Source: Escherichia coli
Lineage (GTDB): Bacteria; Pseudomonadota; Gammaproteobacteria; Enterobacterales; Enterobacteriaceae
DNA length: 64,000 bases
Assembly (NCBI RefSeq): GCF_050320075.1
Contig: NZ_CP190018.1
Reading direction: 5' to 3' (one strand)
Of this stretch, positions 1 to 33,922 are shown one piece after another (positions within the stretch are counted from its first letter, which is position 1; the number at the start of each line of letters is the position of its first letter). The position numbers were made by a program, and so were the translations under genes. The notes below the pieces were generated by a model. The model was not told the origin of the DNA. It worked only from the letters and a program-made list of their open reading frames with translations, and searched no databases.

Positions 1-95
1 CGTTGAGATTTTGCCTGCGGACGTCCTGGATACTTTTCATTTTCTGGAAAATCGCCTCATATATGAATCAGTAGATGATTCAATTTAAAGCAATA

Positions 96-158
96 TTACC
101 CAACAGGTAAATGCACCTCATGGGTAACTATCCTTGATTTTTGTTACCTTATGGGTGA
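96..158. promoter_or_regulatory. Operator cluster: three TTACC-N5-GGTAA type palindromes (96-110 perfect; 113-127 and 144-158 degenerate) upstream of Cro-like gene
   Basis: Read directly: TTACCCAACAGGTAA, GCACCTCATGGGTAA, TTACCTTATGGGTGA, spaced like a lambdoid OR region. Confidence 0.6.
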
Positions 159-194
159 ATATTTATTATCTGAAATAAATATCAGGCAATAGCT

Positions 195-425
195 ATGAGC
201 GATAACGGACATTTCGATTTCAAAAAGCACTGGCTTGCACTTACTCCGGATGAGCGTGAAGCCTTCGCACAGGAAGCCGGAACGACGAGTCACTATATCC
301 AGACTCACTTAACAGGTAAGCGCAAAATGCCAGGTAAAGTATTGATGAATGGGCTTTTTAAAGCCTGTAAAACAAGACAATGGCTGCGCTCAAAAGCAGA
401 ACTGGCATACTTCTTCTACTCATGA
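195..425 (+). CDS. Cro/CI-type helix-turn-helix regulator (Cro-like)
   Basis: 76 aa ORF; HTH-like segment AFAQEAGTTSHYIQTHLTGKRKMP; sits directly downstream of the operator cluster and upstream of the replication genes. Confidence 0.6.
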   Translation: MSDNGHFDFKKHWLALTPDEREAFAQEAGTTSHYIQTHLTGKRKMPGKVLMNGLFKACKTRQWLRSKAELAYFFYS

Positions 426-446
426 TATCCAGCTACAACCCTCTGT

Positions 447-470
447 AGACCGCCACCCGGCGGTCTTTTC
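447..470 (+). terminator. Rho-independent terminator after Cro-like gene
   Basis: Hairpin AGACCGCC-ACCC-GGCGGTCT followed by TTTT. Confidence 0.6.
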
Positions 471-480
471 ATATCTATTC

Positions 481-495
481 GTACCTCAAAGGTAA
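481..495. promoter_or_regulatory. Operator-like palindrome GTACC-TCAAA-GGTAA
   Basis: One-mismatch copy of the TTACC-N5-GGTAA motif, intergenic, followed by TAATAA. Confidence 0.5.
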
Positions 496-539
496 TAAAA
501 AACCAAATATGGTTGATATTTTTTTTGTGTCAGCACAAA

Positions 540-776
540 ATGACCGTAATCCCAATACTAATAACAGGGCTTACCATGGAAATCATTACACGTATTGATG
601 CCGCAAAGCGCGGACTTAAACGCTACTACACCGGAAAAACATGTAAGCACGGACATGACAGTGAACGCTGGGTTTACAACGGACACTGTGTTGAGTGCAC
701 CATGGAATCAAACCGTCGTATCAGGGCAGAGATTAAGCAGATCATGATTAATTCCTCCCCACAACATTCAAGCTGA
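540..776 (+). CDS. Hypothetical small Cys/His-rich (possible zinc-ribbon) protein; start uncertain (TTG 513, ATG 540 or ATG 576)
   Basis: ORF with CKHGHDSERWVYNGHCVEC segment; occupies the position between cro and the replication genes. Confidence 0.4.
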   Translation: MTVIPILITGLTMEIITRIDAAKRGLKRYYTGKTCKHGHDSERWVYNGHCVECTMESNRRIRAEIKQIMINSSPQHSS

Positions 777-791
777 TAGCGGAGATTAATC

Positions 792-1607
792 ATGAGCAGA
801 CATGCAACAGATTGGGCCTGGGAGACAGATCCAGGTAGCTCATCATTAAAGCTCATACTGCTCTCGATGGCTGACAGAGCCGATGAATATAACCTCTGCT
901 ACCCCAGCATAGAACGCCTCGTTAAAGACACTTGCCTGAATAAAAAAACCGTGCAGGCCGGGCTTATATCGCTCATGAAAATGGGGCTTATTTCAGATAC
1001 CGGAGAGAGAAAGGGAGCGACAAAAAGAGTGCGGGTTTTCTCTCTTAATATAACCAAAAACGGGAACATTAAAGGCAACCGGGAAGGGGGTAATGAACCC
1101 GAAATCGGTAATGTTACCGAAAACGGGAATATACCCAAAAACGGGATGTTGAATGATCCCAAAAACGGGATGTTGAATGATCCCAAAAACGGGATCCAGA
1201 ACCAGTCATATAACCAGTCATTTAACCAAGAGAGGGAGAGCAGGACAAAAAGCGGGGATTCTGTGCCTCATGACCCCGGAGCAAACAACGCCGTGATGAA
1301 TAACTTTGTTCCTCCTGGTGGGCCAGGGCAATTAGGCAAATTTGTCATGCATGAACAATGGCAGCCATCAGATGACTTTCTTCGGAAAAGCTCATTGCAG
1401 GGGATCTACCTGGACAGTCTGCCAACGGCACAGGAACTTGCAGAGTTCAGAATTTACTGGATGGCTGAGGGTAAGGCATACCATCAGGCACAGTGGGAGC
1501 AGAAGCTGGCAAGGCGGCTGCAGATTAGCAGACAGAAGCAATCAACATTACCTGATAACAACGTTCCGCACTGGAACAGCCCTGAAGCATGGGAGGATTT
1601 CTTGTGA
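792..1607 (+). CDS. Replication initiator, lambda O-like (N-terminal winged-helix DNA-binding domain, iterons inside the gene)
   Basis: 271 aa; GGAG RBS; repeated peptide PKNGMLND encoded by tandem DNA repeats; immediately followed by the P-like gene. Confidence 0.7.
   Translation: MSRHATDWAWETDPGSSSLKLILLSMADRADEYNLCYPSIERLVKDTCLNKKTVQAGLISLMKMGLISDTGERKGATKRVRVFSLNITKNGNIKGNREGGNEPEIGNVTENGNIPKNGMLNDPKNGMLNDPKNGIQNQSYNQSFNQERESRTKSGDSVPHDPGANNAVMNNFVPPGGPGQLGKFVMHEQWQPSDDFLRKSSLQGIYLDSLPTAQELAEFRIYWMAEGKAYHQAQWEQKLARRLQISRQKQSTLPDNNVPHWNSPEAWEDFL
1054..1200. repeat. Iteron array (probable phage origin): two perfect 24-bp units CCCAAAAACGGGATGTTGAATGAT (1134-1157, 1158-1181), a third truncated unit (1182-1200), and degenerate copies at 1054-1068 and 1116-1130
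   Basis: Direct tandem repeats read in the sequence, followed by the short direct repeat ACCAGTCATATAACCAGTCATTTAACC. Confidence 0.7.
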
Positions 1608-2426: not shown

Positions 2427-2503
2427 TTACCTGGAAGGTAATAAAATGTTCTAATCTCTATTGATTTCATGTCTTATGTGGTTTTTAATTACCTAAGGGG
2501 TAA
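2427..2503. promoter_or_regulatory. Two operator-like palindromes (2427-2441 TTACCTGGAAGGTAA; 2489-2503 TTACCTAAGGGGTAA) flanking a promoter region; the second abuts the start codon at 2507
   Basis: Perfect TTACC-N5-GGTAA copies read in the sequence. Confidence 0.6.
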
Positions 2504-6081: not shown

Positions 6082-6114
6082 TTACCACAACGGTAACAAT
6101 TACCATGGTGGTTA
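6082..6114. promoter_or_regulatory. Operator-like palindromes at 6082-6096 (TTACCACAACGGTAA) and 6100-6114 (TTACCATGGTGGTTA, degenerate) upstream of terminase genes
   Basis: Read directly; they lie inside the over-extended track ORF 6036..6710. Confidence 0.55.
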
Positions 6115-9247: not shown

Positions 9248-9262
9248 TTACCTGAAAGGTAA
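9248..9262. promoter_or_regulatory. Operator-like palindrome TTACCTGAAAGGTAA upstream of the portal operon
   Basis: Perfect copy of the motif, followed by TAATAA. Confidence 0.6.
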
Positions 9263-18222: not shown

Positions 18223-20843
18223 TGCCAGTCGTACCAACAGTATCCGGACGTCAGGTTGAGAGCCGTGGAGTTCAGTCAGCAGGCTTGCAGATGTTTTCTC
18301 AGCCAGGTATTGGTGATGCTTTTGTTCTGGCAGGGGCAGAGGCTATTGATGTTCTGGGTCAGGCAAAACAGCGTGCCAATATTGCCTTGGTTCAGGAGGC
18401 ATCCCTTAAACTCAGTCAGACAGGCAGCGATCTGCTGAATAACCCTGAAACAGGTTTGCTTAACCTGAAAGGGAAAAATGCTATTGGAAAAGGTCAGGAG
18501 TATACGCAGCAGTTTGATGCTCAGGTCGAACAACTGGCTATGTCGCTGCCGGATGAACAGGCTCGTAATGCTTTCATGCAGCAGGCGCAGCAGCAGCGCA
18601 TTCAGTTCACTACGCAGGCCGGGAGGTACGAAATAGGACAGGTTCGCCAGTATGAGGCGGATATGCAGGATGCGACACTAAAAAACCTATCGATGCAGTT
18701 CCGTAACCCGACAATGGCAAACCAGGCAGGATTGAAGGCATATCATAGCATCATCGCTTACGGAGAAGCCCACGGCCAGAGTCAGGAAGAGATCGAACAG
18801 AACTGGGTTTCGTGGCGCGAGAATGCCGCGAACGGTGCGGCGGAGGCGTGGTATGTGCCGATGTATCAACAGATGATGGGTCCGAACGGCAAGATTGAGG
18901 TAACCGATACACCGAGTGAGGCGCAGTTATTCTCTGCAATAATCTGGCAGGAGAGTGGCGGAAATCAGTACGGAAAGGACGGAACACCTCTGGTGTCGCC
19001 AAAAGGCGCTGTTGGCGTAGCGCAGGTGACGGAAGATACTGGCCCCGAAGCTGCCCGCCTTGCTGGCGTGCCGTGGGACCGCGATAAATGGTTGAATGAC
19101 CCGCGCTATAATGCCCGCTTGGGGCAAGCTTATTTCGGCGCGCAGATGAAGAAATACGACAATAACCCGGTTCTGGCAGTAGCTGCCTATAACGCTGGCC
19201 CAGGAAAGGTTGACGGCTGGATTAAACAGATTGGCGATCCGCGCACAGGCGAAGTCAGTAACGCCCAGTTTGCCGCAGCTATCCCATACGACGAGACGCG
19301 CAATTATGTGGCAAAAGTAACTGGCAGTGCTGGAGCTATTCCTGGATCTGCGACGATGGAAAACCTCATCGCACAGCCATTCTGGAACGCCATGAGTCCG
19401 GACAAAAAGTCGCAGATGATGAGCAAGGTTGCTGGCATGTACGACATGCAGGCTTCAGCCGGTCGCGTTGCGCTACAGAGTCGAATGCAGGACGACCTAT
19501 CCAAAATTGAGGCCGGTAAGCAGGTGACGCCTATTTCAGCGCACGAATGGGCCGCCGTTATGCCGCTTCAGGCAGCGCCTGCCGAGCGCCTGCAGATGGA
19601 AAAAACCTTCCAGCAATACCAGCAGGCAATGACGCTACAACCTGTTTATCAGACCATTATGCAGGGCAACGTCCAGCAGGGTACCGCCGCCGTGCAGGCA
19701 ATGGCACCGCAGGAAAACGACCCTGACTTTAAATACAAAGCAGAGCTTTATGCATCGGCAAAGGTCAAGCTTGGGCAGGTACTGAAGGCGCGGGAAGCGG
19801 ATCCGGGGGCATGGCTGCAACAAAACTCTCCGGTTGTGCAGGCTGCATTCCAGCAGTACCTGAATGACCCTTCATCTGGTGAATACCTAGTTTCCCGCAT
19901 ACAGTCTGAAAAAGACCGCCTGGGGATAATGAGCAAAAAAGTTTTACCGGAGTCCATGGTCAACGACGTACTGCAGCGTATTGACAACACGCAGGAATCT
20001 AGCGTAAAGGCCATTCAGTCGGTGGCGCAGTCGTTCGGCAAATACTCGGATCAGGTGATGCGGCAGGTGCAAAATAAAGCATTCCCAGCTTTAAAGGTTG
20101 TAATGTCTACAGAAAACCAACGGGCAGCAGATGCGTTGTGGCAAATACGGAATGTACCTACTTCTGATTTGAGATCTGGTTTGGATAAAAACCAGGCAGA
20201 CAGTGCAGACTCATCGTGGACAGATCAATTTAAAGATTTTTCTTCAACTCTTATTCCTCAGAGAAATGGTGCTGAAAACTGGACTATTTATAACGAGCAG
20301 GGAAAACGCTTGACCTACAACTACATGCAGCGCGGAATGTCGGCGTCTGATGCAGCAAAACAGGCGTATCAGGACCTTCTCGGCGAGCAGTACCAGACCA
20401 ATGGCACTTGGCGGCTACCTAATCGTGCAGGGGTAGATATTCGTGACGTTAACGATGGTGCCAATGCGTATCTGAAAAACCTGTCAGCAGATCAGATTAT
20501 GCCGCTTATTGGTGACCCAAGGCTACCTGATGAGGTCAACCGTGAGCAGAGTATCTCCCGCATTCGTGATAATGCGCAGTGGGTTACCAACAGCGACGAA
20601 ACAGGACTTACCCTGATGCTCAACGGGCTGATCGTCAACGGTGCCGACGGCAACTCGATTACGGTGACGTTCAACGATCTGGCGAAACTGGGAACAACCA
20701 ACCGATCAGTATGGAACCGCATTACCAAGTTCATTGATACTCCGGTGAAATATACTCCCGGACAGTCTAAGGAATACAGCGCAGAAAGTCAGCGCGACAA
20801 CCTGATTAACATTTTCCAGAACGGCCAGCAATCAGGACGATAA
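18222..20843 (+). CDS. Ejection/internal virion protein with lytic transglycosylase (SLT-like) domain; start moved to ATG 18222
   Basis: GGAGG RBS before MPVVPTV; region AIIWQESGGNQYG...VGVAQVTEDTG...AYNAGPGKV resembles the SLT active-site region. Confidence 0.65.
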   Translation: MPVVPTVSGRQVESRGVQSAGLQMFSQPGIGDAFVLAGAEAIDVLGQAKQRANIALVQEASLKLSQTGSDLLNNPETGLLNLKGKNAIGKGQEYTQQFDAQVEQLAMSLPDEQARNAFMQQAQQQRIQFTTQAGRYEIGQVRQYEADMQDATLKNLSMQFRNPTMANQAGLKAYHSIIAYGEAHGQSQEEIEQNWVSWRENAANGAAEAWYVPMYQQMMGPNGKIEVTDTPSEAQLFSAIIWQESGGNQYGKDGTPLVSPKGAVGVAQVTEDTGPEAARLAGVPWDRDKWLNDPRYNARLGQAYFGAQMKKYDNNPVLAVAAYNAGPGKVDGWIKQIGDPRTGEVSNAQFAAAIPYDETRNYVAKVTGSAGAIPGSATMENLIAQPFWNAMSPDKKSQMMSKVAGMYDMQASAGRVALQSRMQDDLSKIEAGKQVTPISAHEWAAVMPLQAAPAERLQMEKTFQQYQQAMTLQPVYQTIMQGNVQQGTAAVQAMAPQENDPDFKYKAELYASAKVKLGQVLKAREADPGAWLQQNSPVVQAAFQQYLNDPSSGEYLVSRIQSEKDRLGIMSKKVLPESMVNDVLQRIDNTQESSVKAIQSVAQSFGKYSDQVMRQVQNKAFPALKVVMSTENQRAADALWQIRNVPTSDLRSGLDKNQADSADSSWTDQFKDFSSTLIPQRNGAENWTIYNEQGKRLTYNYMQRGMSASDAAKQAYQDLLGEQYQTNGTWRLPNRAGVDIRDVNDGANAYLKNLSADQIMPLIGDPRLPDEVNREQSISRIRDNAQWVTNSDETGLTLMLNGLIVNGADGNSITVTFNDLAKLGTTNRSVWNRITKFIDTPVKYTPGQSKEYSAESQRDNLINIFQNGQQSGR

Positions 20844-26856: not shown

Positions 26857-26977
26857 ATGAACCTCAACCAATCGACTTTACCAATCGGGTAATTTTAAAC
26901 ATGAGTATAATGCTTTTAACTGCAACGAGTGTAAACAATTATTGATAATTGTAGGCACATCCCTGTGCCGCCGCCCG

Positions 26978-27664
26978 TCAGAAGAACCCTGCTTTGTCGT
27001 TGATGTACTCCGCGTGCGTCTGGATATCACGCAGGCATTTACTCACACCGACGATGTAGCAGAACATGGTGGTCAACTCCGCCGCCGCGCCCGATACGTC
27101 GTGCCCGTCGTCCTGTAACTGGTTCAGCAAATTCATCAGCAGTGAGTTCTCCGTCAGGCCGAGAACACCAGACGGCGAATGAATCAGGCTACGGTAGCCG
27201 GGCTTCAGTGGGGCGCTGTAGGTTTTGTTCTCTATCTTCATTGCCTGCATCACTGCTGATGCTGTGGCGTTGGCTACCTGGTCGGCAACCATCTTTATGC
27301 GTTCTTCCTGCGGGAGCGAGTTTTTAATGTAACTTCCGGTGCGGCGGATCTGAGGAAGAACCTCACCTGTAACCCATTTGCGAAAGCGGTAGGGGATAGT
27401 GCCTGGTGTTACTGCATCGCGGCAGCGGAGGATCAGTGTGTAGAGGCCTGACTCGTTGATAATATTGGTTTCGCCTTGACGGCCTAAGTTAAATTTAGCC
27501 CTTTCATCATCATCAAGAGATTTTATTGACATAGTGGGGTTTGTCAGTTGAAGAGCTTTAATAACGTCTTTGGCAACAAACCAAGGATTTCCATCAATAA
27601 CAATGGCTCGAATGGTTGCTTCTGATTCAAAATGAAAAACAGATGGGGTTACGTTAGCAGTCAT
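26978..27664 (-). CDS. Bro-N domain antirepressor-like protein (start trimmed to ATG 27664)
   Basis: N-terminal FHFESEATIRAIVIDGNPWFVAKDVIKAL...NIINESGLYTLILRCRDA resembles Bro-N; SD AAGGTGA before ATG 27664. Confidence 0.6.
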   Translation of the reverse strand: MTANVTPSVFHFESEATIRAIVIDGNPWFVAKDVIKALQLTNPTMSIKSLDDDERAKFNLGRQGETNIINESGLYTLILRCRDAVTPGTIPYRFRKWVTGEVLPQIRRTGSYIKNSLPQEERIKMVADQVANATASAVMQAMKIENKTYSAPLKPGYRSLIHSPSGVLGLTENSLLMNLLNQLQDDGHDVSGAAAELTTMFCYIVGVSKCLRDIQTHAEYINDKAGFF

Positions 27665-27932
27665 AGTGATCACCTTTGTAGTTAGGTTAATCACCACTAC
27701 CGACGCCAATCGGTTGGTGGTGAACTGTGCAGGGTTGGCGTAACCGGCTACAAAGGACCCGGCGCACCTTTCGGTGCCCCCACACAGCCCACCATAGAAT
27801 AGGTGCGCTTTACACATAAAAAAAACCGCTTATGCGGCATATGTGCCTCTGTAGTAACTCGGGACGCCAATCCCGGCACTGGATTTTGCCAGTGCCCGAT
27901 TACTATGGCACAAGAGGAGTGCGTTGTAAATT

Positions 27933-27947
27933 TACCGCAAAGGTAAA
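27933..27947. promoter_or_regulatory. Operator-like palindrome TTACCGCAAAGGTAA upstream of the Bro-N gene
   Basis: Perfect copy, intergenic. Confidence 0.6.
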
Positions 27948-27977: not shown

Positions 27978-28235
27978 TTATCTGGTTTGTTTTCGTAATT
28001 GTTCGGCACAATAGTCGAGATGTGTTTGCAGATCCCGCATAGACATCTGTGAGCTGGTGACGTAGTTAATCAGTGCAGTCAGTTCGGCAAGTGGGCCATC
28101 GACATTAAATCCATCCTTATCGAGATCCCGGAGTAATTTCATCAAGTGCGATCCCTCCACCAGTGACCTGACGCCTCCCGGCGTGTGAATCCTTTCGGTA
28201 AATCCGTCTTCCAGTGGATAGTGATACTGCTGCAT
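27978..28235 (-). CDS. Small protein paralogous to the C-terminal domain of the adjacent Bro-N protein
   Basis: HTPGGVRSLVEGSHLMKLLRDLDKDGFNVDGPLAELTALINYV...MRDLQTHLDY aligns with Bro-N C-terminus HSPSGVLGLTENSLLMNLLNQLQDDGHDVSGAAAELTTMFCYI...LRDIQTHAEY. Confidence 0.5.
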   Translation of the reverse strand: MQQYHYPLEDGFTERIHTPGGVRSLVEGSHLMKLLRDLDKDGFNVDGPLAELTALINYVTSSQMSMRDLQTHLDYCAEQLRKQTR

Positions 28236-28312
28236 CTTAATCTTCTCCATGCAATAACTGTATATTTATACAGTATCAAATAATTTGTTTGCTATCCAGC
28301 ACGTTTTGCAAA

Positions 28313-28327
28313 TTACCTGAAAGGTAA
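28313..28327. promoter_or_regulatory. Operator-like palindrome TTACCTGAAAGGTAA in the divergent region before the tailspike gene
   Basis: Perfect copy; identical to the copy at 9248. Confidence 0.6.
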
Positions 28328-33164: not shown

Positions 33165-33314
33165 CATGGCATTTTCATGGCACTGATTTCCTGTGACGGT
33201 ATATAAAACGGTACGAGGAAAATTTGGTTTTGGAAAAGTGTTATCACTCAATTGGTTATGGTGTCCGTAAATAATTGAGTGGGAATGATTTTGATCCCTG
33301 CACTATGAATGAAC

Positions 33315-33345
33315 AAAACCCTCTGTTACTACAGAGGGTTTTTTA
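33315..33345. terminator. Bidirectional rho-independent terminator (host yfgI 3' end; limit of prophage transcription)
   Basis: CCCTCTGT-TACT-ACAGAGGG flanked by A-run and T-run. Confidence 0.7.
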
Positions 33346-33382
33346 TCTTCAAGAATTATAGGCTTGAAGTTACTTACATCGA

Positions 33383-33922
33383 TTAATTAAACCAGCTGTC
33401 CGATTTGTTCTCTTCTGCTTTGCCCACGCTTTTCATCAGATCGCGACCGCCCTCAGTCATATTCCTGTTTGCGTCAGCTTCAGATTGCACCACATCGGTT
33501 TGCGCAGCTTTGTGCTTCAGTTCCTGATCGATAAATTCGTTTTCTCGCTTAACGCGGGCTTCTTCTTTCGCCAGCGCCAGTTTTTGTTTCTGAATCTCTA
33601 AGCTGCGTAGCTCATCTTCATAACTTTGATCGCGTTTTTTGTCCGCAGTGGCTTCGGCGTCCAGTTTATCCTGACGAGCTTTCTTATTTGCCGCTGCCGT
33701 TGCCGCTCTTTTGTTAGCGGCGGCCTGGGCGTTTGCGCGACGTTGCTTCTCTTGCTGGATTTCCCTGTTGCGCTCCGCGACCCATTCGTCATGCTGCCTT
33801 TGCTCTTCATTTTTACCTTGCTGTTCCGCTTCTGCGACAGCAGAGAGTTGATCCTGCAATGATGAGGCGATAGCCGGATAGCTTAAGGAGGTTAAGATGG
33901 CGCAAAGAAAAACTTTCTTCAT
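33383..33922 (-). CDS. yfgI: YfgI, secreted protein
   Basis: 179 aa with signal peptide and coiled-coil; matches E. coli YfgI in size and context. Confidence 0.75.
   Translation of the reverse strand: MKKVFLCAILTSLSYPAIASSLQDQLSAVAEAEQQGKNEEQRQHDEWVAERNREIQQEKQRRANAQAAANKRAATAAANKKARQDKLDAEATADKKRDQSYEDELRSLEIQKQKLALAKEEARVKRENEFIDQELKHKAAQTDVVQSEADANRNMTEGGRDLMKSVGKAEENKSDSWFN

What the first reader, a model, noticed from the sequence alone, without database searches (positions are those of the whole stretch)
96..158. Tripartite operator cluster upstream of the Cro-like gene
Three adjacent palindromes (one perfect, two degenerate) lie in about 60 bp, resembling an OR1-3 genetic switch; the degenerate copies may be lower-affinity sites. 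This implies the immunity repressor gene lies divergently just left of the window.
Basis: partly seen in the sequence, partly recalled or inferred. Interest (0 to 1): 0.45.

Follow-up and report, generated by a model that had tools for sequence, protein, structure and literature searches.

The report
Prophage repressor operator cluster (OR)
The three palindromes are real and are the right-hand operator of a common phiV10/epsilon15-type E. coli prophage, next to its divergent repressor gene; the same motif marks nearly every promoter region of the phage, so this is a correct call on an already studied kind of switch.

Summary
Confirmed. Window 96-158 holds three 15-bp sites of the form TTACC-N5-GGTAA: O1 96-110 (perfect), O2 113-127 (2 mismatches) and O3 144-158 (1 mismatch). 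No such cluster appeared in 300 shuffles.

The predicted divergent repressor gene exists. Its start codon is at window 40-38 on the minus strand. Its 194-aa product is a full-length homologue of Salmonella phage SPC32H Rep (PDB 5D50, E=4e-42).

The window's first 33.3 kb is the right arm of a phiV10-like (Uetakevirus) prophage. The arms of all three sites, their spacing (17 and 30-31 bp) and a TTGATT -35 box are invariant in six phages whose repressors are only 42% identical. In 80 near-identical prophages, every polymorphism inside the sites falls in the N5 spacers.

The motif is not confined to OR. There are 8 perfect copies in the prophage part (0.013 expected), none in the host part, and nearly all are intergenic. 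The epsilon15 RefSeq record annotates identical sites as repressor-binding.

The switch is SPC32H-type, not lambda-type. The repressor has no S24 protease domain, and a LexA-boxed anti-repressor gene lies at 27978-28250.

Verdict: ordinary, a new member of a known kind. No binding was tested here.

The parts
1..40 (-). 5' end (start codon 40-38 and first 13 codons, MKSIQDVRRQNLN) of the prophage repressor gene rep; the rest lies left of the window
   Evidence: Window 1-612 is 100% identical to the end of phage EC.W1-9, where the 585-bp 'putative repressor' CDS ends at this position. The protein matches SPC32H Rep, PDB 5D50_A, E=4e-42 over its full length.
96..110 (.). O1, perfect site TTACCCAACAGGTAA; the site nearest rep
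   Evidence: The arms are invariant in six phages. The only polymorphism in 80 prophages (position 104) is in the spacer.
113..127 (.). O2, degenerate site GCACCTCATGGGTAA (2 mismatches), 17 bp from O1
   Evidence: ACC and GGTAA are invariant. The site is perfect in epsilon15, SPC32H and the Klebsiella phage. Polymorphisms 118, 120, 121 and 122 are all in the spacer.
134..139 (+). Inferred -35 box (TTGATT) of the rightward lytic promoter PR
   Evidence: TTGATTTTT is invariant in the six-phage alignment. The same box lies before O3 in distant relatives L090 and L092. The promoter was not mapped.
144..158 (.). O3, site TTACCTTATGGGTGA (1 mismatch), 31 bp from O2; fills the PR spacer and touches the -10 box
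   Evidence: The only polymorphism (position 153) is in the spacer.
157..162 (+). Inferred -10 box (GAATAT) of PR, 17 nt after TTGATT. The consensus scan instead proposes TTGTTA 141-146 / TATTAT 164-169
   Evidence: Either choice puts O3 inside the core promoter. Inferred, not mapped.
195..425 (+). First gene of the rightward unit (phiV10 gp41 homologue, 76 aa): small helix-turn-helix protein, Cro-like by position and predicted fold
   Evidence: PHROG 35 'transcriptional repressor', E=5.6e-13. No Pfam hit. Predicted structure pLDDT 85.7 with five helices. Best fold matches are the YdaS N-terminal domain and the 434/P22 repressor DNA-binding domains, TM 0.55-0.66 but E about 0.6-1.
447..466 (+). 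Terminator-like hairpin directly after gp41
   Evidence: Annotated as a terminator in phiV10.
481..495 (.). Further site GTACCTCAAAGGTAA (1 mismatch) before the gp42/replication genes
   Evidence: A site lies at about the same offset (+441 to +443) in five of the six phages, with 1-2 mismatches.
2427..2441 (.). Perfect site, upstream member of a pair 62 bp apart, after the replication genes
   Evidence: The pair and its spacing are conserved in Tyrion and epsilon15. The equivalent epsilon15 site is annotated as 'repressor' binding.
2489..2503 (.). Perfect site, downstream member of the pair, ending 3 nt before the ATG of the next gene (2507)
6082..6096 (.). Perfect site before the small terminase gene
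   Evidence: The epsilon15 equivalent (12-27) is annotated as 'repressor' binding.
6100..6114 (.). 1-mismatch site 18 bp from the previous one
9248..9262 (.). Perfect site before the head-gene block
26878..26892 (.). Perfect site next to minus-strand promoter-like hexamers
27932..27946 (.). Perfect site abutting a promoter-like -10 upstream of the long anti-repressor gene
27978..28250 (-). Short anti-repressor gene ant (90 aa)
   Evidence: PDB 5D50_E 'Anti-repressor protein', E=1.6e-46.
28258..28273 (.). LexA-box-like palindrome CTGTATATTTATACAG directly upstream of ant
28313..28327 (.). Perfect site between ant and the tail fibre gene
   Evidence: The epsilon15 equivalent (19895-19911) is annotated as 'repressor' binding.

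Best explanation
Window 96-158 is the right operator (OR) of a phiV10/epsilon15-type (Uetakevirus) prophage.

What binds. The three TTACC-N5-GGTAA sites are binding sites for the prophage repressor Rep, whose gene starts at window 40 and runs leftward. Each site offers two 5-bp half-sites whose centres are 10 bp apart, which suits a pair of helix-turn-helix domains on one face of the DNA.

How it represses. O3 lies in the spacer of the rightward promoter (TTGATT-17-GAATAT) and touches its -10 box. Bound Rep would therefore block transcription of the small Cro-like gene at 195-425. O1 (perfect, nearest rep) and O2 (17 bp away) are inferred to anchor the complex and to control the rep promoter itself.

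Wider control. The same motif sits at the leftward promoter beyond rep and before most other transcription units. One repressor would thus silence the whole phage directly.

Induction. By homology with SPC32H, induction is not by repressor cleavage. DNA damage removes LexA from the box at 28258-28273, the anti-repressor Ant is made, and Ant takes the Rep tetramer apart.

Shown here: the sites, their conservation, their placement, and the identity of the Rep and Ant genes. Inferred: that Rep is the binding protein, the promoter positions, the occupancy order and the stoichiometry.
For: - Sites and statistics.
- Divergent repressor gene. The identical protein in phage ZX5, when overexpressed, abolished free phage and cut holin and endolysin mRNA by more than 99.9% (PMC9782041).
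- Homology of Rep and Ant to the SPC32H pair: PDB 5D50 chains A and E, E=4e-42 and 1.6e-46. SPC32H Rep is reported to bind palindromic DNA sites as a tetramer and to be dismantled by Ant (summary of Kim et al. 2016 in PMC9638917).
- Annotation: the epsilon15 RefSeq record marks seven ATTACC-N5-GGTAAT sites as 'protein_bind: repressor'.
- Phylogenetic footprint: site arms, spacing and TTGATT are invariant in six phages while spacers and flanks vary. The same three-site layout occurs in four distant Rep homologues.
- Population footprint: 6 variable positions inside the sites are all in the 15 spacer positions and none in the 30 arm positions. My hypergeometric calculation gives p about 6e-4.
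- Repressor-type placement: a perfect site abuts the -10/+1 of a near-consensus leftward promoter, TTGACA-17-AATTAT. O3 lies inside PR.
- Genome-wide: 16 of 17 sites with <=1 mismatch in EC.W1-9 are intergenic, although 92% of that genome is coding.
- Link to Rep rather than gp41: the Rep segment NLVNRW (residues 36-41), which I take to be in the DNA-reading helix, is invariant. A Pseudomonas phage cI with a homologous N-terminal domain (E=1e-12), but no detectable gp41 homologue, is flanked by TTACC-N4-GGTAA sites.
Against: - No binding experiment was run here. I also could not read the primary SPC32H and epsilon15 papers, which are not held. I therefore do not know which sites were footprinted.
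- The epsilon15 record does not annotate its own three OR sites, and the basis of its 'repressor' labels is not stated.
- The gp41 helix-turn-helix is as invariant as Rep's, so conservation alone cannot say which protein reads the sites.
- The motif does not change across Rep homologues whose putative reading helix differs, so no covariation test was possible.
- No consensus promoter for rep was found.
- The perfect site is the one farthest from PR, the opposite of lambda, so the occupancy order is unknown.
Confidence: 0.85

Rival explanations
1. The sites are read mainly by the small Cro-like protein gp41 (or another phage regulator) rather than by Rep. For example, they could serve as lytic-cycle control sites shared by all promoters.
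For: The gp41 helix-turn-helix (AGTTSHYIQ.HLT) is invariant across the phages, as the site arms are. In lambdoid phages Cro and repressor share operators (established knowledge). PHROG 35 calls the family 'transcriptional repressor'.
Against: A Pseudomonas phage with a Rep-type N-terminal domain, but a divergent small ORF with no detectable similarity to gp41, still has TTACC/GGTAA palindromes on both sides of its repressor gene. The epsilon15 record assigns the sites to the repressor. SPC32H Rep is reported to bind palindromic sites. Binding by both proteins is not excluded and is in fact likely; only 'instead of Rep' is the rival.
Confidence: 0.07
2. A true lambda-type switch: dimers of a RecA-cleavable repressor bind cooperatively to OR1 and OR2, activate PRM, and fill OR3 last.
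For: There are three sites between divergent repressor and Cro-like genes. In phage ZX5, anti-repressor overexpression lowered repressor mRNA by 75%, a hint of positive autoregulation.
Against: Rep has no Peptidase_S24 domain; only helix-turn-helix domains were found. It is homologous over its full length to SPC32H Rep, whose C-terminal part is a tetramerisation and Ant-binding domain. A LexA-boxed ant gene is present. Spacing is 17 and 31 bp rather than 23-24 bp. The strongest-looking site is distal to PR. The motif occurs at many promoters, not only OL and OR.
Confidence: 0.03
3. The palindromes are chance or serve an unrelated role, such as a host-factor site, a replication or packaging signal, or an RNA structure.
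For: Two-mismatch matches to the pattern are common everywhere in the window.
Against: 0 of 300 shuffles gave such a cluster, and 8 perfect copies compare with 0.013 expected. The arms are invariant across genera. There is no Rfam match in 1-800. The iteron-like repeats of the replication gene are a different sequence.
Confidence: 0.02

Closest known systems
Rep/Ant lysis-lysogeny switch of Salmonella phage SPC32H (Kim & Ryu 2013 J Virol; Kim et al. 2016 PNAS; PDB 5D50, 5D4Z)
   Same: Rep and Ant are homologues (E=4e-42 and 1.6e-46). The gene order is the same. SPC32H has the same three OR sites at +55, +72 and +102 from the rep start, and the same leftward sites. A LexA-box-like palindrome lies before ant.
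   Different: Rep is only 42% identical overall. O2 is degenerate here (GCACC) but perfect in SPC32H. O3 carries its mismatch in the other arm. O2-O3 spacing is 31 rather than 30 bp. This prophage also has a second, long anti-repressor gene with an Ant-like C-terminal domain. I could not read what was mapped experimentally in SPC32H.
Repressor-binding sites annotated in the epsilon15 genome (NC_004775.2; Kropinski et al. 2007)
   Same: The motif is identical, ATTACC-N5-GGTAAT. The positions before the terminase, head, tail-fibre and recombination genes, and after the replication genes, correspond to window sites 6082, 9248, 28313 and 2427 and to the leftward sites.
   Different: The record lists 7 sites and omits the three in its own rep/gp39 intergenic region, which are the equivalents of this finding (33341, 33358, 33388). 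No phiV10-type record I inspected annotates any site.
Lambda OR1-OR2-OR3
   Same: Three related palindromes lie between divergent repressor and Cro-position genes. One site lies inside the lytic promoter. The match to consensus is graded.
   Different: The sites are 15 bp (5-N5-5) with 17 and 31 bp spacing. The best site is distal to PR. The repressor lacks the S24 autocleavage domain and belongs to a family reported to be tetrameric. Induction is by an anti-repressor. The operators are not limited to OL and OR.
Dispersed-operator immunity of phage P1 (C1) and mycobacteriophage L5/L1 (gp71 'stoperators')
   Same: One repressor motif is scattered over many transcription units. Multi-site binding by the L1/L5 repressors is mentioned in the abstract of PMC1934351; the P1 C1 comparison rests on my own knowledge.
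   Different: Those operators are asymmetric. Here they are palindromic, almost all intergenic, and often occur in pairs at fixed spacing (17-18 or 62 bp).

Membership tests
Uetakevirus (epsilon15/SPC32H-type) Rep operator region | Adjacent divergent gene for a Rep homologue | tested here: met
   The rep start is at window 40 on the minus strand. PDB 5D50_A, E=4e-42, residues 1-190.
Uetakevirus (epsilon15/SPC32H-type) Rep operator region | Site sequence equals the motif annotated as repressor-binding in epsilon15 (ATTACC-N5-GGTAAT) | tested here: met
Uetakevirus (epsilon15/SPC32H-type) Rep operator region | Same number, order and spacing of sites at the homologous position in relatives | tested here: met
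   The six-phage alignment and offset table show O1 at +55/56, O2 at +72/73 and O3 at +101 to +104. Four distant homologues also have sites in this region.
Uetakevirus (epsilon15/SPC32H-type) Rep operator region | Partner anti-repressor gene with a LexA box | tested here: met
   ant lies at 27978-28250 (5D50_E, E=1.6e-46). CTGTATATTTATACAG lies at 28258-28273. LexA binding itself was not tested.
Uetakevirus (epsilon15/SPC32H-type) Rep operator region | Rep physically binds these sites and represses the adjacent promoters | not testable with these tools
   The evidence is indirect: Rep overexpression silences lytic genes in the 99%-identical phage ZX5, and there is a literature summary for SPC32H.
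Lambda-type tripartite OR switch | Three operators between divergent repressor and cro genes | tested here: met
Lambda-type tripartite OR switch | Operators overlap two back-to-back promoters (PR and PRM) | tested here: inconclusive
   O3 lies inside a conserved PR candidate. No convincing rep promoter was found. The best guess is TTACCT (110-105) / TAAATT (87-82) on the minus strand, which is weak and was read by eye.
Lambda-type tripartite OR switch | Repressor with a C-terminal S24 (LexA-like) autocleavage domain | tested here: not met
   Pfam finds only helix-turn-helix domains. The C-terminal half matches the SPC32H Rep tetramerisation and Ant-binding domain.
Lambda-type tripartite OR switch | Operators confined to OL and OR | tested here: not met
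   There are 8 perfect sites in the prophage part of the window and 11 in the whole EC.W1-9 genome.
Cro (for the gene at 195-425) | Small helix-turn-helix protein encoded first on the rightward lytic transcript | tested here: met
   Position. A five-helix model whose best matches are YdaS and the 434/P22 DNA-binding domains, with weak E-values.
Cro (for the gene at 195-425) | Sequence membership in a described Cro family, or binding to the same operators | tested here: not met
   No Pfam hit. No PDB sequence hit. All homologues are named 'hypothetical'. The profile match to the Rep N-terminal domain is not significant. Binding is not testable here.

The most novel reading that the evidence does not exclude
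The working unit of repression may be one Rep tetramer bridging two palindromes at fixed spacing. The spacing would be 17-18 bp at OR and before the terminase gene, and 62 bp at the leftward promoter and after the replication genes. A deliberately weakened third site (O3) would sit on the lytic promoter and the strongest site next to rep. This paired-site design would be repeated at most transcription units, so a podovirus with lambdoid gene order would be silenced promoter by promoter, as in P1, rather than through two operators plus antitermination. The conserved spacings and graded degeneracy fit this reading but do not prove it. It may already be described in the SPC32H papers, which I could not read.
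Probability: 0.3. Interest if true: 0.45.

Novelty: new member of a known kind. Interest (0 to 1): 0.25.

Why it matters
This immunity region is common: window 1-200 matches 538 of 5426 complete E. coli genomes. It also occurs in phiV10-type O157 typing phages.

- **Better annotation.** None of the phiV10-type records I inspected lists any operator site.
- **Predicting superinfection immunity.** The arms are identical in E. coli, Salmonella, Enterobacter and Klebsiella phages. This raises the question of whether their repressors, only 42% identical, cross-react.
- **A compact parts list for experiments.** Rep, three graded operators, Ant and a LexA box could be used to study how a tetrameric repressor reads paired sites.

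It does not change any concept. The system type is already characterised structurally in SPC32H.

Tried and rejected
- **Primary papers.** Kropinski 2007 (PMC2698709), Kim & Ryu 2013 (PMC3807360) and Kim 2016 (PMC4983836) are not held. Full-text searches for the motif and for Uetakevirus operators found nothing relevant. I therefore cannot say which sites have been footprinted.
- **Covariation test between the Rep reading helix and the half-site.**
  - The related-loci scan of viral contigs returned only identical repressors.
  - The word-indexed search with the N-terminal domain returned only close fragments.
  - The profile search found distant homologues, but all four that I fetched still carry TTACC-N5-GGTAA, so the motif does not vary and the test has no power.
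- **Is gp41 a diverged copy of the Rep N-terminal domain?** The helix-turn-helix segments align in register, but the probability is 1.3% and E=0.04, so I did not use it.
- **A consensus promoter for rep.** None was found. Candidates read by eye are weak.
- **Consensus promoters at the pairs 2427/2489 and 6082/6100 and at the single site 9248.** The scan found none next to the sites. A conserved TTGATT-17-TTTAAT between 2427 and 2489 shows only in the alignment.
- **Known RNA families in 1-800.** None.

Full report
**Observation.** Window 96-158 contains three 15-bp sites of the form TTACC-N5-GGTAA.
- O1: TTACCCAACAGGTAA (96-110), perfect.
- O2: GCACCTCATGGGTAA (113-127), two arm mismatches.
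- O3: TTACCTTATGGGTGA (144-158), one arm mismatch.

Start-to-start spacing is 17 bp (O1-O2) and 31 bp (O2-O3). The coordinates and the description 'one perfect, two degenerate' are exact.

The cluster is not chance.
- In 300 dinucleotide-preserving shuffles of the prophage part of the window, the mean number of perfect sites was 0.013, against 8 observed.
- No shuffle gave three sites with <=2 mismatches within 63 bp.
- Among all 1024 five-base half-sites counted as h-N5-rc(h), TTACC ranks first, with 8 copies against 3 for the next.

**Where the window comes from.**
- Window 1-800 is 98.4-98.8% identical to phiV10 and several related E. coli phages. Window 1-612 is 100% identical to the end of phage EC.W1-9.
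- A comparison with the whole EC.W1-9 genome shows that window 1 to about 33290 is the right arm of such a prophage: early right genes, packaging, head, tail and lysis.
- The attachment core ATTGAGTGGGAATGATT reported for the near-identical phage ZX5 (PMC9782041) lies at 33274-33290. The rest of the window is host chromosome.
- The first 200 bases match 538 of 5426 complete E. coli genomes.

**The divergent repressor gene.**
- In phiV10 and EC.W1-9, a 585-bp gene on the minus strand starts at the position equal to window 40. It is annotated as putative repressor, or as a helix-turn-helix protein.
- The minus strand of window 40-1 encodes its first 13 residues, MKSIQDVRRQNLN.
- Pfam finds two helix-turn-helix regions and no S24 protease domain.
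- The protein is homologous over its full length to the repressor Rep of Salmonella phage SPC32H (PDB 5D50 chain A, E=4e-42).
- The identical protein of phage ZX5, when overexpressed, abolished free phage and reduced holin and endolysin mRNA by more than 99.9%. That paper did not map operators.

**Conservation of the three sites.** I aligned the rep/gp41 intergenic region from the window, Enterobacter phages Tyrion and BUCT554, a Klebsiella phage, epsilon15 and SPC32H. Their repressors are 42-78% identical to this one.
- The arms of all three sites are invariant: TTACC and GGTAA in O1, ACC and GGTAA in O2, ACC and GGT.A in O3. The block TTGATTTTT at 134-142 is also invariant. The N5 spacers and the flanks vary.
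- Offsets from the rep start are constant: O1 at +55/56, O2 at +72/73, O3 at +101 to +104.
- O3 carries a mismatch in every phage, in one arm or the other. O2 is degenerate in the phiV10 clade and perfect in the epsilon15 clade.
- Four much more distant full-length Rep homologues, found by a profile search with the N-terminal domain, also have TTACC-N5-GGTAA sites in this region. A 17-bp O1-O2 step is visible in them, and in three of the four the single perfect site is the one nearest rep.
- Within 80 prophages encoding the identical Rep, the variable positions inside the sites are 104, 118, 120, 121, 122 and 153. All six are among the 15 spacer positions and none among the 30 arm positions. 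My hypergeometric calculation gives p about 6e-4.

**Promoters.**
- The consensus scan finds one rightward candidate: TTGTTA 141-146 / TATTAT 164-169.
- Conservation favours TTGATT 134-139, a 17-nt spacer, and GAATAT 157-162. In epsilon15-type phages and in distant relatives, the -10 box is formed partly by the O3 arm (GGTAATAAT).
- Either way O3 lies inside the core promoter of the gp41 transcript, the position of a repressing operator.
- No convincing promoter for rep was found. A weak candidate read by eye is TTACCT at 110-105 and TAAATT at 87-82 on the minus strand, which would put its -35 box inside O1.
- In ZX5, overexpression of an anti-repressor lowered rep mRNA by 75%. This hints at positive autoregulation, but it is indirect.

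**The motif is genome-wide.**
- Perfect copies lie at 96, 2427, 2489, 6082, 9248, 26878, 27932 and 28313. One-mismatch copies lie at 144, 481 and 6100. The 30.7 kb of host DNA has no perfect copy.
- In the complete EC.W1-9 genome, 16 of 17 sites with <=1 mismatch are intergenic, although about 92% of the genome is coding.
- Just left of the window, beyond the rep terminator, two perfect sites 62 bp apart bracket a near-consensus leftward promoter (TTGACA-17-AATTAT). The downstream site abuts its -10/+1.
- The same positions carry the motif in epsilon15 and Tyrion.
- The epsilon15 RefSeq record annotates seven of them as 'protein_bind: repressor'. It omits the three in its own rep/gp39 region, which are the equivalents of this finding.
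- Pair spacings recur. They are 17-18 bp at OR and before the small terminase gene, and 62 bp at the leftward promoter and after the replication genes.

**Type of switch.**
- The window also encodes a homologue of the SPC32H anti-repressor Ant (27978-28250, minus strand; PDB 5D50 chain E, E=1.6e-46).
- A LexA-box-like palindrome, CTGTATATTTATACAG, lies directly upstream at 28258-28273.
- According to the summary of Kim et al. 2016 in PMC9638917, SPC32H Rep binds palindromic sites as a tetramer whose DNA-binding pairs come from different dimers. A tetrameric Ant breaks this assembly.
- PMC9986798 describes the Rep C-terminal region as a tetramerisation domain that also binds Ant.
- From my own memory of the Kim & Ryu 2013 abstract, which I could not check here, Rep is not cleaved during SOS and ant is LexA-controlled.
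- The system therefore works like lambda OR in layout but not in mechanism. See the membership table.

**Which protein reads the sites.**
- Rep is the best candidate for these reasons: the placement at -10/+1 of lytic promoters, the epsilon15 annotation, the SPC32H literature summary, and the invariant NLVNRW segment (residues 36-41), which I take to be in its reading helix.
- One further pointer comes from Pseudomonas phage PseuP_224. Its cI has a homologous N-terminal domain (E=1e-12) fused to an S24-type C-terminal domain. It carries TTACC-N4-GGTAA sites, two upstream and one downstream of the gene. Its divergent small ORF has no detectable similarity to gp41.
- gp41 may well bind the same sites, as Cro does in lambdoid phages. 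Its helix-turn-helix is equally invariant. Its predicted five-helix fold best matches the YdaS N-terminal domain and the 434/P22 DNA-binding domains, though with weak E-values. It has no Pfam family, no PDB sequence hit, and only 'hypothetical' homologues.

**Verdict.** It is a new, unannotated member of a known kind. Interest is low to moderate. The main uncertainty is that no binding data could be consulted or produced here.

Noticed in passing
window 2427-2441 / 2489-2503; window 6082-6096 / 6100-6114; L003 39326 / 39388: Sites of the same motif come in pairs at two recurrent spacings, 62 bp and 17-18 bp. Both spacings are conserved in epsilon15 and Tyrion. The 2427/2489 pair brackets a conserved TTGATT-17-TTTAAT. 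The downstream members end 2-3 nt before the start codons, with the purine-rich N5 spacer where a ribosome-binding site would be.
   Followed up: partly
window 26978-27817 (minus) and 27978-28250 (minus): There are two anti-repressor genes. One is a short SPC32H-type Ant with a LexA-box-like palindrome. The other is a 279-aa protein (PHROG 130 Ant, E=7.5e-57) whose C-terminal 82 residues are 41% identical to the short Ant (E=2e-21). The long gene is preceded by a perfect TTACC-N5-GGTAA site (27932-27946) abutting a promoter-like -10, so Rep may repress one of its own antagonists.
   Followed up: partly
window 159-182: A perfect AT-only inverted repeat, ATATTTATT-N6-AATAAATAT, lies directly after O3, in the likely 5' leader of gp41. 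It is largely kept in the phiV10 clade, while epsilon15-type phages have a different small palindrome (ATTCA-GATA-TGAAT) at this place. Its function is unknown.
   Followed up: no
window 1134-1195 and 1200-1228: Exact tandem repeats (24 bp x 2.6, CCCAAAAACGGGATGTTGAATGAT; then 12 bp x 2.4) lie inside the replication-initiator gene (792-1607). They look iteron-like, as with the lambda origin inside gene O.
   Followed up: no
window 33274-33290: The attachment core ATTGAGTGGGAATGATT marks the right prophage/host junction. The ZX5 paper reports it as the site at the 3' end of guaA.
   Followed up: partly
L004 (epsilon15 NC_004775.2) 33341-33402, 24704, 35969: The epsilon15 RefSeq record annotates seven repressor-binding sites but misses at least five more good matches. 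These include the three between its repressor gene and gp39.
   Followed up: yes
L089 (Pseudomonas phage PseuP_224) 1122, 1161, 2023; unannotated ORF 861-1091 (minus): A cI with a Rep-like N-terminal domain and an S24-type C-terminal domain is flanked by TTACC-N4-GGTAA sites, the same half-site with a spacer one base shorter. An unannotated divergent 76-aa ORF sits in the Cro position. This suggests the DNA-reading domain and half-site are an old module joined to different C-terminal domains.
   Followed up: partly
window 447-495: gp41 is followed at once by a terminator-like hairpin (447-466) and then by another operator-like site (481-495). The Cro-like gene therefore looks like a one-gene transcription unit, and the replication genes appear to have their own controlled start.
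   Followed up: no
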